Sequence record: NC_054913.1
Length of the DNA: 64,000 nt
Strand: one strand, 5' to 3'
Source: Escherichia phage F2
Under the pieces are notes generated by a model. The model was not told the origin of the DNA and did not search any database. It worked only from the letters and a program-made list of their open reading frames with translations. Made by a program: the position numbers and the translations under genes. Position 1 is the first letter of the stretch; each line of letters starts with the position of its first letter. Shown here piece by piece: positions 53,835 to 56,556 of this stretch.

Positions 53835-54350
53835 ATGAATATTTGTTTAGGCAGTACAATTCCTAAAGGTTATGTAATTGATGTCACTACTTGGGAAAAT
53901 GACGGTGACAACTATAAAACCAAAACATTATTTGGTGTAGAAGAGCATGAGCTCCAACAGTTTAAATATCTCTTGAAGAAATTTAAGAGTCGTCATTCTA
54001 GTACTAAAGCTGAACGTTACTGTGGTAATACACTATTCAGTGATTGCTCGCTTTTAATCTATGAATACTTGGTTGAAGGACTGTTCTCAGACCAGCTTTA
54101 TCCAGAATTCATTAAAAAGGTCTTTGATATTGAAGTCGACCTCGGTAATAAATCTGAAGAAGACGAATCACGTGTATTTGACCTGTTCCGTGAGAATGGA
54201 TATTTGGTATCAGAAGGTCTCACTGATATTCTTGGCCATGCTTCCGAATATTATGATTATGATTTCTTGCGTGTAGTTGAACGTGTCGAATTTGCTTATA
54301 TTGAAGAAGAAATCGTTTTGCCAACCGTTAAAATGATTGATTTGCTTTAA
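53835..54350 (+). CDS. hypothetical protein, 171 aa
   Basis: ORF with GGTGA RBS; no motif recognised. Confidence 0.55.
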   Translation: MNICLGSTIPKGYVIDVTTWENDGDNYKTKTLFGVEEHELQQFKYLLKKFKSRHSSTKAERYCGNTLFSDCSLLIYEYLVEGLFSDQLYPEFIKKVFDIEVDLGNKSEEDESRVFDLFRENGYLVSEGLTDILGHASEYYDYDFLRVVERVEFAYIEEEIVLPTVKMIDLL

Positions 54351-54429
54351 GAATTATGTGTTATTATTAATTCATACCCTCTATTACCAAAGGTGCTCTA
54401 AAGTGCCTTTCATAATAGAAAGTTATTTA

Positions 54430-54656: not shown

Positions 54657-55322
54657 ATGAGCATTTGTAAACATTGTAATATGGAATTTGATATTTCTAA
54701 TAAACCTAAAGGATGGATGGCTAACCACACTAGATGGTGTAAATCCAACCCTAAATTGGAATTGTATAAAGAAAGTTCTAAATCAGCCATTGCAGCAATG
54801 AATAAAGCACGTATAGCTTCAGGTAATTTAAACCAGTATGTTGTATCTAAAAAGACTGGTGTCCCTGTAGTAATTTCGGAAGAGACTAGACAAAAATTGT
54901 CAGCCGCTTCATTAGGTAGAGAACACTCTGAGGAATCTAGAATAAAAATATCTAATGCTCGGAAAAAATGGTTGAATGAAAACCCTGATAAACATCCTTG
55001 GAAGAAAAATACAAAATTTAAATCTGTGCCTTGTGAATTTTTGAAATCTAAATTAATAGAAAACGGAATTTCATTTATTGAAGAATACCAACCGGTTAAA
55101 AACCGAGCGTATTGCACGGATATTGCTTTAATAGATAAAAAGATTATTATTGAAGTTAATGGAAACCAACATTACTCCAATCCTAAGAAAAAGATTTTGG
55201 CCCCTTATTATAAAGAACGCCATGATATTATAAAATCATTAGGATGGGAAATATATGAACTTCATTATGCTGAAGTTTATAAAGAAGATATTGTAAATAA
55301 TTTAATTGCCTCTATAGTGTAA
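54657..55322 (+). CDS. free-standing endonuclease, non-GIY-YIG: N-terminal Cys/His cluster, NUMOD3-like repeats, C-terminal PD-(D/E)xK-like (Vsr/DUF559-type) domain; 221 aa
   Basis: CKHC...HTRWC; repeats SEETRQKLSAASLG and SEESRIKISNARKKW; C-terminal IIIEVNGNQH...KERHDIIKSLGWEIYEL; lies between tRNA-Asn and tRNA-Arg, last 5 codons overlap tRNA-Arg. Confidence 0.6.
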   Translation: MSICKHCNMEFDISNKPKGWMANHTRWCKSNPKLELYKESSKSAIAAMNKARIASGNLNQYVVSKKTGVPVVISEETRQKLSAASLGREHSEESRIKISNARKKWLNENPDKHPWKKNTKFKSVPCEFLKSKLIENGISFIEEYQPVKNRAYCTDIALIDKKIIIEVNGNQHYSNPKKKILAPYYKERHDIIKSLGWEIYELHYAEVYKEDIVNNLIASIV

Positions 55323-55383
55323 TGGATAGCATATAATCGTTCTAAGGTTAATGGTGAGAGTTCAAATCTTTCTAGAGGCACCA
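55308..55383 (+). tRNA. tRNA-Arg (UCU), CCA encoded
   Basis: Manual cloverleaf: acceptor GCCTCTA/TAGAGGC, anticodon loop GTTCTAA, T arm GAGAG-TTCAAAT-CTTTC, ACCA 3' end; T4 also encodes tRNA-Arg(UCU). Confidence 0.75.
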
Positions 55384-55401: not shown

Positions 55402-55746
55402 ATGAAAGGCAATATTTATCTGGTAGTTCATGATTTAACGTTTTATTTTAACGAACATGATACAGTTATTTCAGACCGATTGATTAATTTGTTATACCAA
55501 CATGCAGATTACATCTATGTTCAAAATGAATTCGGACATTGGAAGTTCATTAAAAATCGTTCTGGGTTAACTAGTTTTGAATACTTTGACCGTAAAGACC
55601 TTTTAAACGAAATCCCATTGCAACATCGGTTCCAGAAACGCGAATCATTATATTATTGCCGCCATATACCAAACGCAGAATGCGTTAATGAAGCGATTAA
55701 TCTATGGCGTCAGCGTCGAGAGCAAATTGATGATATGTCAAAATAA
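55402..55746 (+). CDS. hypothetical protein, 114 aa
   Basis: ATG at 55402 with GAGGA RBS; the ORF track extends into the tRNA. Confidence 0.5.
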   Translation: MKGNIYLVVHDLTFYFNEHDTVISDRLINLLYQHADYIYVQNEFGHWKFIKNRSGLTSFEYFDRKDLLNEIPLQHRFQKRESLYYCRHIPNAECVNEAINLWRQRREQIDDMSK

Positions 55747-56057
55747 GAAGCCGGGTCGCTACCGGCAAGTCGTCGGACTGATGTTCCCTGCGTAAGGACT
55801 GGTCTTAATAAATCTTTACGATTTGTTAATATCCCCTTACATCACAGCAGAAACGGCGCACCGAATTATCGATTCGAGGAAATATCTTTGCCGTAAGCCG
55901 AGTAGCGTTTTTGACGGAACGTTCGGATATGGTCGAGATATGGCCTTTTAAAAATATTGAGTAGCGTCAACTACTTAATAACCGGGTTCGAATCCCGGCG
56001 TTTCGTACAAACACTTGCCTTAGCAGGTGGAACCCCTACAAGGTTGCCGCAAGGCTT
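55747..56057 (+). ncRNA. putative small stable RNA locus (T4 rnaC/rnaD-like), boundaries not resolved
   Basis: About 310 nt with no credible ORF, downstream of tRNA-Arg; T-arm-like CCGGG-TTCGAAT-CCCGG at 55982-55998; several short hairpins; ends at a strong terminator. Confidence 0.4.
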
Positions 56058-56059
56058 AG

Positions 56060-56085
56060 CCCCGACCGAAAGGTCGGGGTTTTTT
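56060..56085 (+). terminator. rho-independent terminator (GNRA loop) ending the tRNA/stable-RNA transcription unit
   Basis: ccccgacc-gaaa-ggtcgggg followed by tttttt. Confidence 0.8.
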
Positions 56086-56219: not shown

Positions 56220-56249
56220 GTTTACATCCTTGTTCTTCCATGGTACTAT
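56220..56249 (+). promoter_or_regulatory. early sigma70-type promoter
   Basis: gtttac at 56220-56225, 18 nt, tactat at 56244-56249. Confidence 0.55.
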
Positions 56250-56292: not shown

Positions 56293-56556
56293 ATGGATAA
56301 TTACGGTGAGCTGTTCAACTTCTTTATGAAATGCGTTTCAGAAGATTTCGGTCGTACAGTGAATGATATTAAAGTTATCGGTCCTGACCATCCGATGTTT
56401 GAAACTTACGCAGTAATGGGTAATGAAGATGGTCAGTGGTATACTGTAAAGGTTGTGATTAACATGTTCACAGCAGAAGGTTATGTTAAACTGTCTTCTA
56501 AAGTTTACCACGATAACGACGAAATCGCAGAAGAATATTTCAATAATATGAAATAA
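56293..56556 (+). CDS. hypothetical early protein, 87 aa
   Basis: ATG at 56293 with GGAGAA RBS. Confidence 0.5.
   Translation: MDNYGELFNFFMKCVSEDFGRTVNDIKVIGPDHPMFETYAVMGNEDGQWYTVKVVINMFTAEGYVKLSSKVYHDNDEIAEEYFNNMK

What the first reader, a model, noticed from the sequence alone, without database searches (positions are those of the whole stretch)
55747..56085. ORF-free 310-nt structured region after tRNA-Arg ending in a strong terminator: likely small stable RNAs
T4 encodes two stable RNAs of unknown function (rnaC and rnaD) distal to its tRNAs. This region has no credible ORF, contains a T-arm-like CCGGG-TTCGAAT-CCCGG and several short hairpins, and ends at the strongest terminator in the window. 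Exact RNA ends cannot be called from sequence.
Basis: partly seen in the sequence, partly recalled or inferred. Interest (0 to 1): 0.4.

Follow-up and report, generated by a model that had tools for sequence, protein, structure and literature searches.

The report
Orthologues of T4 stable RNAs rnaD/rnaC
This stretch is the end of a T4-type phage's tRNA operon and carries this phage's copies of two small stable RNAs (species 2/rnaD and species 1/rnaC), known in T4 since the 1970s and still without a known function.

Summary
Window 55743-56085 aligns end to end with T4 rnaD, rnaC, a 3' trailer and the terminator. rnaC (55869-56007) matches T4 at 138 of 139 bases. rnaD (55743-55862) matches at about 86%. 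The window comes from an RB69-like (Mosigvirus) phage.

Covariation across Tevenvirinae genera supports both as structured RNAs rather than ORFs:
- rnaC is a four-way junction. It has a 7-bp acceptor-like stem stacked next to a canonical T arm, two further arms with complementary 6-nt loops, no anticodon loop and no encoded CCA.
- rnaD is a 5' hairpin followed by a rod with an invariant base and a swappable apical hairpin.

rnaC, rnaD and the trailer occur independently of each other in other phages, almost always inside tRNA clusters.

Function remains unknown in the literature I could search. One lead: a published convergent adaptive SNP in phage BW-1 restores a base pair in the rnaD apical hairpin, returning it to the allele apparently shared by about 143 of 148 related records.

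Verdict: a real feature, already known as a kind, correctly identified. Interest is modest.

The parts
55743..55862 (+). rnaD orthologue (T4 species 2 RNA), about 120 nt. The 5' end is uncertain by about 10 nt because an ORF, not tRNA-Arg, lies upstream here.
   Evidence: Local alignment to T4 rnaD gives 104 of 121 columns identical. The covariance model R1 scores it 151.5 bits (though this sequence was in the training set).
55750..55766 (+). rnaD P1 hairpin, GCCGG-GUCGCUA-CCGGC.
   Evidence: 4 of 5 pairs show compensatory changes across 19 distinct sequences. The whole stem is replaced by UCAGAA-GACG-UUCUGA in Karamvirus-type copies.
55769..55861 (+). rnaD rod, from base to tip:
- basal stem GUCGUCG (55769-75) x CGGCG(C)AC (55854-61)
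- internal loop GACUGA (55776-81) / GAAA (55850-53)
- P2 UGUU (55782-85) x AGCA (55846-49)
- CCC bulge (55786-88)
- UG x CA
- variable apical hairpin P3 (55792-55840)
   Evidence: RNAalifold consensus. On the 20-sequence alignment 98.1% of cells are paired against 31-43% when partners are slid, and 13 of 23 pairs have compensatory changes. P3 exists in at least four unrelated versions.
55863..55868 (+). AU-rich spacer GAAUUA between the two RNAs. I infer it is an endonucleolytic processing site.
   Evidence: It corresponds to the 6-nt gap AAAUUA between the annotated T4 rnaD and rnaC. The cleavage itself is inferred, not tested.
55869..56007 (+). rnaC orthologue (T4 species 1 RNA), 139 nt, a tRNA-like four-way junction.
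   Evidence: 138 of 139 bases identical to T4 rnaC. The minimum-free-energy fold equals the RNAalifold consensus. 94.9% of cells are paired against 36-47% when slid, and 25 of 51 pairs are compensatory.
55870..55876 (+). rnaC acceptor-like stem, 5' strand CGAUUCG. It pairs with CGUUUCG at 55999-56005 (7 bp, with two U.U mismatches in T4-type copies).
   Evidence: The third pair changes A-U to G-C (9 versus 11 sequences). The two U.U positions become U-A and C-G in the Tegunavirus lineage.
55877..55946 (+). rnaC arm 1, a long irregular hairpin whose apical loop contains UUGACG (55911-55916).
   Evidence: 13 of its 20 variable-helix pairs show compensatory change (helices 3 and 4).
55955..55980 (+). 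rnaC arm 2, a 10-bp stem with the 6-nt loop CGUCAA (55965-55970). The loop is fully complementary to the arm 1 loop UUGACG, so this is a candidate kissing-loop contact.
   Evidence: Stem: 8 of 10 pairs compensatory. Loop-loop: all 6 pairs form in all 20 sequences. 5 pairs are invariant and 1 changes C-G to U-A in the Tegunavirus lineage, a single event. The contact is inferred.
55982..55998 (+). rnaC T arm CCGGG-UUCGAAU-CCCGG, directly abutting the acceptor 3' strand as in tRNA.
   Evidence: 2 of 5 pairs are compensatory (G-C to U-A or A-U) and 100% of cells are paired.
56008..56057 (+). Conserved 3' trailer, CAAACACUUGCC..GCAGGUGGAACCCCUACAAGGUU plus a small GNRA hairpin. It behaves as a separate module.
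   Evidence: It is nearly invariant over 14 distinct phage sequences. It follows rnaD directly where rnaC is absent (JS98, L017) and follows an inserted ORF in L011. Fold z-score -4.4.
56058..56085 (+). Intrinsic terminator of the tRNA operon.
   Evidence: 10-bp stem with 7 G-C pairs, GAAA loop and T6. Strongest in the window. The stem varies by compensatory changes among phages.
54340..54367 (+). Context: middle-promoter-like site (MotA box ATTTGCTTTA, 12 nt, TATTAT), 60 nt upstream of tRNA-Met. It is the probable start of the roughly 1.7-kb operon transcript that ends at 56085.
   Evidence: Pattern match only. It agrees with the T4 description in PMC2330249.

Best explanation
**What it is (shown by homology).** The segment is the distal end of the phage's tRNA operon. 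It encodes the orthologues of T4 species 2 RNA (rnaD, 55743-55862) and species 1 RNA (rnaC, 55869-56007). A conserved trailer and the operon's intrinsic terminator (to 56085) follow.

**How the RNAs are made (inferred; about 0.7).** This part rests on T4 literature and on the anatomy.
- The RNAs are transcribed together with tRNA-Met, tRNA-Asn, a homing-endonuclease-like ORF, tRNA-Arg and a 114-aa ORF.
- The promoter is upstream of tRNA-Met, possibly with internal promoters as well.
- Host tRNA-processing nucleases then cut the RNAs out. rnaC offers a 7-bp acceptor-like stem stacked on a 5-bp T stem, the unit that RNase P and 3' trimming enzymes recognise.
- The AU-rich spacer GAAUUA is the kind of site RNase E cuts.
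- Trimming back to closed helices would leave compact, nuclease-resistant molecules. The annotated T4 ends sit 1-2 nt outside the terminal helices of my models, which fits this.

**What they do (inferred; about 0.4 overall, about 0.2 for a tRNA-decoy role).** I think they act in trans on host factors rather than in decoding.
- rnaC copies only the acceptor/T half of a tRNA. It has no anticodon loop and no CCA, and its two other arms appear locked by complementary loops. That suits binding or titrating a protein that reads the tRNA 'top half', such as a processing or modification enzyme or a tRNA-directed defence nuclease.
- rnaD is a rod with an invariant base and an exchangeable tip. The integrity of its apical hairpin appears to matter for growth on a natural E. 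coli isolate.
For: **Identity**
- The region is collinear with the annotated T4 record, and synteny matches T4 and RB69.
- About 800 phage records carry the region, and 677 of them cover at least 80% of it.
- Some records annotate it as rnaC/rnaD (RB7, RB27, ATK47, T2L).

**Structured RNA**
- rnaC: 25 of 51 pairs compensatory, 94.9% paired against about 38% when slid.
- rnaD: 13 of 23 pairs compensatory on 19 distinct sequences. These include copies from four further Tevenvirinae lineages, found by the covariance model at E 1e-7 to 1e-2.

**Operon context**
- The terminator is confirmed, and a MotA-box promoter-like site lies upstream of tRNA-Met.
- PMC2330249 says the T4 transcript runs through the whole cluster, ends after the species I gene and is the precursor of the tRNAs and of species I and II RNAs.
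- PMC9697503 detected RNAC by northern blot in T4 infection.

**Trans function**
- The modules occur separately, embedded between tRNAs in Karamvirus, Kanagawavirus and Jiaodavirus. rnaD also occurs in Vequintavirinae phages W70 and A73.
- The convergent BW-1 SNP that raised virulence on ECOR34 (PMC12685909) maps to the rnaD apical hairpin. In RNA sense it is A to G, turning a C.A mismatch into C-G.
- Only 5 of 148 records with this hairpin type match the A allele exactly. For nearly all the rest, identity rises by one mismatch when the query carries G.
Against: - There is no expression or end-mapping data for this phage. All ends are transferred from the T4 annotation.
- The held literature states that the function is unknown (PMC3014915, PMC9697503).
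- From my own knowledge, not checked here: T4 deletions that remove the tRNA region are viable on laboratory strains, so any function is conditional.
- The BW-1 SNP comes from one study. The same base changed in all three lines, so it may have been a standing variant in the stock, and its effect could act through something other than rnaD structure.
- The loop-loop contact in rnaC rests on one compensatory event. Its geometry is untested and could equally be intermolecular.
- The annotated T4 5' end of rnaC lies 1 nt upstream of where canonical RNase P cleavage of my model would fall.
- The T loop is not canonical in the Kanagawavirus copies (UGCAUGC).
Confidence: 0.85

Rival explanations
1. 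The elements act only in cis. They would be processing, stability or termination structures that protect or punctuate the tRNA operon transcript, and the excised RNAs would be inert by-products.
For: They are nearly always inside or at the end of tRNA clusters. rnaD usually starts right after a tRNA 3' end. The trailer and terminator close the operon.
Against: The selection seen goes well beyond what a spacer needs. There are invariant internal loops, a canonical T loop, complementary loops, and about 40 invariant trailer bases across phages. The modules move independently of any particular tRNA. The T4 RNAs accumulate as discrete species (PMC9697503).
Confidence: 0.2
2. They are decayed tRNA genes (pseudo-tRNAs) with no present function, still processed only because remnants of tRNA structure persist.
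For: rnaC has a tRNA-like acceptor and T arm. ARAGORN calls a 95-nt 'tRNA-Met' inside the rnaC homologue of Enterobacter phage id4496. Rfam gives a weak tRNA-Sec-like hit at 17 bits.
Against: Compensatory evolution maintains the non-tRNA arms across genera. The nested tRNA-like fold cannot form in the VPA32 and KLB31 copies and is contradicted by arm 1 covariation in id4496. rnaC is 99% identical between T4 and this Mosigvirus, while rnaD and the neighbouring sequence diverge more.
Confidence: 0.05
3. The region encodes one or more small proteins. Automated annotations in many related records place 'hypothetical protein' features here.
For: Many GenBank records list hypothetical proteins under the match. 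TTG-start ORFs of 42 and 45 aa exist on the + strand.
Against: No ORF that starts inside the region on the + strand begins with ATG. The 45-aa ORF would run through the T arm, trailer and terminator hairpin. In Karamvirus copies the homologous frame reads ATG TAG. JS98 and L017 lack rnaC altogether yet keep the trailer. The substitution pattern is helix-compensatory.
Confidence: 0.02
4. rnaC is a chargeable tRNA-like or tmRNA-like molecule that enters translation.
For: It has an acceptor stem, a T arm and a large insertion, which is superficially the layout of the tmRNA tRNA-like domain.
Against: ARAGORN finds no tmRNA or tRNA here, and there is no Rfam tmRNA or tRNA hit. No CCA is encoded: the tail is UACAA in all 20 sequences, and the T4 annotation ends at UA. 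The third acceptor pair is A-U or G-C, not the G.U of tmRNA. There is no 7-nt anticodon loop and no conserved tag frame.
Confidence: 0.03

Closest known systems
Bacteriophage T4 rnaC (species 1 RNA; NC_000866 70908-71046)
   Same: 138 of 139 bases are identical. It has the same position (after rnaD, before the trailer and terminator, upstream of e.8), the same strand as the tRNAs, and the same predicted fold.
   Different: One substitution (window C55934, T in T4). Expression and ends are not verified for this phage.
Bacteriophage T4 rnaD (species 2 RNA; NC_000866 71053-71171) and T2L 'species II RNA' (AJ880101)
   Same: The conserved 5' hairpin, invariant basal stem and internal loops match, and the apical hairpin is the T4/RB69 type. 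It lies immediately upstream of rnaC.
   Different: About 86% identity with three 1-nt indels. In T4 it begins 1 nt after the tRNA-Arg CCA, whereas here a 114-aa ORF separates them, so the 5' end must be made differently. T2-type phages carry an unrelated apical hairpin.
tRNA
   Same: A 7-bp acceptor stem continuous with a 5-bp T stem, a UUCGAAU T loop, a four-way junction, and residence in a tRNA operon.
   Different: No D arm or anticodon arm of normal size, no 7-nt anticodon loop, no encoded CCA, 139 nt long. It is not detected by ARAGORN or by the Rfam tRNA model.
tRNA-like domains of tmRNA and of bacterial Y RNAs (YrlA)
   Same: The general design is shared: an acceptor/T-arm mimic joined to a non-tRNA module and made by tRNA-processing enzymes. 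This is a resemblance recalled from memory, used only as a lead.
   Different: No Rfam hit to tmRNA or Y RNA families even at E up to 10. There is no tag reading frame, no G3.U70, and no Ro-binding helix with a bulged C.
3' external transcribed spacer RNAs of bacterial tRNA operons (e.g. 3'ETS-leuZ)
   Same: The trailer (56008-56085) is a conserved segment ending in the terminator that would be released when the upstream RNA is matured.
   Different: There is no evidence that the trailer accumulates or binds anything. This is analogy only.

Membership tests
T4 rnaC (species 1 RNA) | Full-length sequence homology to the T4 RNA | tested here: met
   138 of 139 bases identical with no gaps.
T4 rnaC (species 1 RNA) | Location at the distal end of the tRNA operon, after rnaD and before the terminator and e.8 | tested here: met
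T4 rnaC (species 1 RNA) | Accumulates as a stable RNA of about 140 nt in infected cells | not testable with these tools
   Shown for T4 only (northern blot in PMC9697503).
T4 rnaD (species 2 RNA) | Full-length sequence homology and the shared fold | tested here: met
   104 of 121 aligned columns identical. All consensus helices are present.
T4 rnaD (species 2 RNA) | Begins immediately 3' of tRNA-Arg | tested here: not met
   A 114-aa ORF (55402-55746) lies between them, as in RB69, BW-1 and other T-even phages. This is a feature of T4's layout rather than of the RNA itself. JS98, W70 and Karamvirus copies do follow a tRNA directly.
T4 rnaD (species 2 RNA) | Accumulates as a stable RNA of about 120 nt | not testable with these tools
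   No expression data exist for this phage.
tRNA (Rfam RF00005 / ARAGORN) | Cloverleaf with D arm, anticodon arm with a 7-nt loop, and T arm, scoring above the family threshold | tested here: not met
   No tRNA is called in 55743-56085. The best related hit is tRNA-Sec at 17 bits against a threshold of 47.
tmRNA | tRNA-like domain with G3.U70 and CCA, plus a tag reading frame | tested here: not met
   ARAGORN finds none and there is no Rfam hit. The third acceptor pair is A-U or G-C, and no CCA is encoded.
Hammerhead ribozyme (considered for rnaD because of CUGAUG ... GAAAC) | Three helices around the CUGANGA / GAAA / NUH core | tested here: not met
   No Rfam hammerhead hit at E up to 10. Stem III cannot be drawn. 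The covarying U/A lies where the invariant core G8/A9 would be.
Intrinsic (Rho-independent) terminator | GC-rich hairpin followed by a U tract on the transcribed strand | tested here: met
   56058-56085: 10-bp stem, 7 G-C pairs, T6.

The most novel reading that the evidence does not exclude
rnaC and rnaD are host-range or counter-defence RNAs. rnaC would be an anticodon-less mimic of the acceptor/T half of tRNA that titrates a host protein reading that half, for example a tRNA-directed defence nuclease or a processing enzyme. rnaD would be a rod-shaped RNA whose apical hairpin must be intact for efficient growth on some natural E. coli isolates, as the BW-1/ECOR34 allele suggests. The conserved trailer might be a third, terminator-bearing small RNA.
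Probability: 0.25. Interest if true: 0.7.

Novelty: already known. Interest (0 to 1): 0.3.

Why it matters
As a finding it mainly confirms good annotation. Most related GenBank records leave these RNAs unannotated or cover them with spurious 'hypothetical protein' calls, and Rfam has no family for them.

The wider point is that the role of T4 species 1 and 2 RNAs has been open for about 50 years. The covariation-backed models here, the independent movement of rnaC, rnaD and the trailer among phage genera, and the re-reading of the BW-1 adaptive SNP as a base-pair-restoring change give concrete mutants and hosts with which to test the question.

Tried and rejected
1. **Rfam.** At gathering thresholds and at E up to 10, no family matches. 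The only hits are a weak tRNA-Sec hit and chance sRNA hits.
2. **Hammerhead reading of rnaD** (CUGAUG...GAAAC). Rejected because stem III cannot form and covariation falls in the would-be core.
3. **Kink-turn or sarcin-ricin reading of the GACUGA/GAAA loop.** It does not fit the canonical patterns, and the loop differs in Karamvirus copies.
4. **Two alternative partners for the rnaC 3' strand.** These were the rnaD 3' end AGAAACG and the internal ACGGAACG that ARAGORN uses in one phage. Neither is supported by covariation.
5. **Y RNA / Ro-binding helix idea,** prompted by GGUCCGAGG in one lineage. There is no bulged-C helix and no Rfam hit.
6. **Scan of bacterial genomes for the rnaD motif.** 0 hits.
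7. **Scans of bacterial genomes and metagenomes with a loose rnaC pattern.** After filtering for a T stem and an acceptor partner, only chance matches remained. These scans therefore say nothing about absence.
8. **Literature.** Only three held papers mention both RNAs, and none gives a function. The 2003 T4 genome review was not available.

Full report
**1. Observation**

- CCGGG-TTCGAAT-CCCGG lies at 55982-55998.
- The only ORFs that start inside 55747-56085 begin with TTG (one with ATG, 21 aa, lies on the - strand over the terminator), and all are 45 aa or shorter.
- A GC-rich hairpin followed by a T run lies at 56058-56085. In my own ranking of every hairpin-plus-T-run site on both strands of the 64-kb window, it is the most stable at -19.6 kcal/mol.
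- The region is 47.5% GC in a 37.5% GC window.
- It folds much better than shuffled sequence. The rnaC part has z -4.9, the trailer z -4.4 and the rnaD part z -2.6.

Two details need correcting. The span is 339 nt, not 310. It is also separated from tRNA-Arg (55308-55383) by a real 114-aa ORF at 55402-55746 (phrog_3355, E 6e-50; the RB69ORF150c position).

**2. Identity**

blastn places the window in an RB69-like Mosigvirus. About 800 phage records carry the region.

The annotated T4 record lists, on the tRNA strand, tRNA-Arg, then rnaD ('species 2 RNA', 119 nt), a 6-nt gap, then rnaC ('species 1 RNA', 139 nt). The window aligns end to end with that whole block and with the sequence beyond it up to the terminator.

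By pairwise alignment:
- rnaD corresponds to window 55743-55862 (104 of 121 columns identical, three 1-nt indels).
- rnaC corresponds to 55869-56007 (138 of 139 identical).

The first four bases of the rnaD orthologue overlap the TAA stop of the upstream ORF.

**3. Distribution and modularity**

The three parts behave as separate modules.
- JS98-type phages and L017 have rnaD joined directly to the trailer, with rnaC cleanly absent (...GAAACGGCGCAC|AGAACACTTGCC...).
- In L011 an ORF sits between rnaD and the trailer.
- Karamvirus, Kanagawavirus and Tegunavirus phages carry an rnaC homologue embedded between tRNA genes, for example between tRNA-Trp and tRNA-Gly.
- The same Karamvirus and Kanagawavirus genomes, together with a Jiaodavirus and Citrobacter phage Ursula, carry a divergent rnaD elsewhere in the array. 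It usually lies between tRNA-Asn and tRNA-Asp. I found these copies by blastn from the W70 copy and with a covariance model (E 1e-7 to 1e-2).
- Two Vequintavirinae phages, W70 and A73, carry an rnaD directly after a tRNA-Met, with no rnaC and no trailer.

**4. rnaC structure**

I aligned twenty distinct sequences (A3). The RNAalifold consensus equals the minimum-free-energy fold of the window sequence. It is a four-way junction with these parts:
- A 7-bp acceptor-like stem, 55870-76 pairing with 55999-56005.
- A long arm 1, 55877-55946.
- An A/U-rich single strand.
- A 10-bp arm 2 with a 6-nt loop, 55955-80.
- A T arm, 55982-98, abutting the acceptor 3' strand exactly as in tRNA.
- A 3' tail UACAA with no CCA.

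Pair counts on this model give 94.9% of cells paired, against 36-47% when partners are slid by 1-3 columns. 25 of 51 pairs show compensatory changes, and no shuffle out of 500 reached the observed values.

The acceptor stem shows A-U to G-C at its third pair. Its two U.U positions become U-A and C-G in the Tegunavirus lineage.

The apical loop of arm 1 (UUGACG, 55911-16) and the loop of arm 2 (CGUCAA, 55965-70) are perfectly complementary in all 20 sequences. This holds even in VPA32 and KLB31, whose arm 1 sequence is otherwise different. In the Tegunavirus lineage the pair changes together, to UUGAUG and CAUCAA. I read this as a loop-loop contact. It rests on one compensatory event, and its geometry (within one molecule or between two) is untested.

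Two other possible partners for the 3' acceptor strand are not supported by covariation. One of them underlies a 95-nt 'tRNA-Met' call by ARAGORN in a single phage.

**5. rnaD structure**

The consensus has these parts:
- A 5' hairpin P1.
- A rod with an invariant basal stem, GUCGUCG pairing with CGGCG(C)AC.
- An internal loop GACUGA/GAAA.
- A short helix P2, with a U-A to A-U exchange among T-even copies and a complete replacement by UUUAAU/AUUAAA in Karamvirus copies.
- A CCC bulge.
- A UG/CA step.
- An apical hairpin P3.

On the 20-sequence alignment made by the covariance model, 98.1% of cells pair and 13 of 23 pairs have compensatory changes. That alignment is fitted to the model, so it leans towards it. 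The independent MAFFT alignment gives 7 of 23.

P3 exists in at least four unrelated versions (T4/RB69, JS98, T2/BW-1, Karamvirus/W70), all of them hairpins. The annotated T4 ends of both RNAs fall 1-2 nt outside the terminal helices of these models. That is what trimming back to a closed helix would produce.

**6. Trailer, terminator and operon**

The trailer (56008-56057) is nearly invariant in 14 distinct phage sequences. The small hairpin and the terminator stem that follow vary by compensatory changes.

A MotA-box middle-promoter-like site lies 60 nt upstream of tRNA-Met. From there to the terminator is about 1.7 kb. This matches the description of T4 in PMC2330249: a primary transcript of about 1.75 kb from a middle promoter, running through the whole cluster, ending after the species I gene, and serving as precursor of the tRNAs and of species I and II RNAs.

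**7. Not coding**

Several observations argue against the small ORFs that many automated annotations place here:
- The helix-compensatory substitution pattern.
- The gain and loss of whole RNA modules.
- An immediate stop in the homologous frame of the Karamvirus copies.
- The absence of ATG starts.

**8. Function**

The held literature says the roles are unknown (PMC3014915; PMC9697503, which confirmed RNAC by northern blot and classed both RNAs as late).

[quoted passage not shown] Their virulence measure (relative bacterial growth) rose from 0.17 to 0.98.

I fetched that locus. The RNAs lie on the reverse strand in the order rnaD then rnaC, which is the opposite of the order stated in the paper. 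In RNA sense the SNP is A to G, at about nt 73 of rnaD. It falls in the apical hairpin CACAG-UUUUA-CU[A>G]UG, where it converts a C.A mismatch into a C-G pair. The predicted energy changes from -25.9 to -31.0 kcal/mol.

Searching with each allele shows that 148 records carry this T2-type hairpin. Only 5 match the A allele exactly. For nearly all the others, identity rises by one mismatch when the query carries G. The adaptive change therefore restores the common, base-paired state. This is indirect evidence that rnaD acts through its structure and affects growth on some natural hosts. It comes from a single study, and the variant may already have been present in the stock.

**9. Mechanism and rivals**

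- Shown: identity with the T4 RNAs, conserved structures, operon context and the terminator.
- Inferred, with moderate confidence: co-transcription with the tRNAs and excision by host tRNA-processing nucleases. From my own knowledge of the 1970s-80s T4 work, not checked here, this involves RNase P-type recognition of the acceptor/T-stem stack of rnaC and RNase E-type cleavage in the AU-rich spacer.
- Inferred, with low confidence: a trans-acting role on host factors, with rnaC as an anticodon-less mimic of the tRNA top half.

The main rival is a purely cis-acting role in processing or stability of the operon transcript (about 0.2). Relic pseudo-tRNAs, small ORFs and a chargeable tRNA/tmRNA-like molecule are each unlikely, for the reasons listed under rivals.

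**10. Comparison, novelty and verdict**

These are members of the T4 rnaC and rnaD families by sequence, synteny and fold. They are not tRNAs, tmRNAs or members of any Rfam family.

- Coordinates for each RNA and its structural parts.
- Covariation-backed models for both RNAs.
- The modular distribution of rnaC, rnaD and the trailer among phages.
- A structural reading of the BW-1 SNP.

Interest is modest (0.3).

**11. Dead ends**

The Rfam, hammerhead, kink-turn and Y RNA ideas led nowhere. A bacterial-genome scan for rnaD returned nothing.

Noticed in passing
window 54657-55322: A 221-aa ORF lies between tRNA-Asn and tRNA-Arg, at the position SegB occupies in T4. It has only weak homing-endonuclease-type hits (NUMOD3, DUF559, RAP; phrog_9084 'homing endonuclease', E 1.6e-5), so it is not the SegB GIY-YIG family. 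Its last 15 nt, including the stop codon, overlap the 5' end of tRNA-Arg (55308-55383).
   Followed up: partly
window 56008-56057 (also L003 1619-1670, L011 3530-3600): The trailer between rnaC and the terminator is almost invariant across phages and travels as its own module. It follows rnaD directly where rnaC is missing, and it follows an inserted ORF in L011. It could be a third small RNA carrying the terminator, or a processing signal.
   Followed up: partly
L008 1499-1597 (Escherichia phage W70; identical in A73): Vequintavirinae phages carry an rnaD copy directly after a tRNA-Met. Its base is the T4 type and its apical loop is the Karamvirus type (GAGUUCYCUCAACGAUAAC). This suggests transfer and recombination of the RNA between phage families.
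   Followed up: partly
L045 777-916, L006 425-564, L009 508-647: In Karamvirus-type phages the rnaD-like element is followed by about 140 nt more of conserved, hairpin-rich, ORF-free sequence before tRNA-Asp (CCGAAAG-UUUA-CUUUCGG ...). This may be a further uncharacterised RNA.
   Followed up: no
L009 1554-1648 (Enterobacter phage vB_Ecl_id4496): ARAGORN and the GenBank record call a 95-nt 'tRNA-Met(CAT)' inside the rnaC homologue. The call is not reproduced in any other rnaC copy, and the fold it needs is contradicted by covariation. It is probably an annotation artefact or an evolutionary relic.
   Followed up: yes
L044 675 (phage BW-1 record position 164264): The paper describing the convergent SNP places rnaC upstream of rnaD and puts the SNP at about position 41 near the 3' end of rnaD. 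On the transcribed strand the order is rnaD then rnaC, and the SNP is at about nt 73, in the apical hairpin.
   Followed up: yes
window 54340-54367 and 56221-56249: Two promoter-like sites flank the finding. One is a MotA-box middle-promoter-like site upstream of tRNA-Met. The other is an early-promoter-like site (GTTTACA, 17 nt, TACTAT with an upstream TG) ahead of the ORF just downstream of the terminator (ATG at 56293).
   Followed up: no
window 55750-55766, minus strand: The terminator scan also flags the reverse complement of the rnaD P1 hairpin followed by TTCTTATTTT as terminator-like on the - strand. No converging - strand ORF of 60 aa or more lies in the ~1 kb listed (shortest ORF listed 20 aa), so this is probably incidental.
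   Followed up: no
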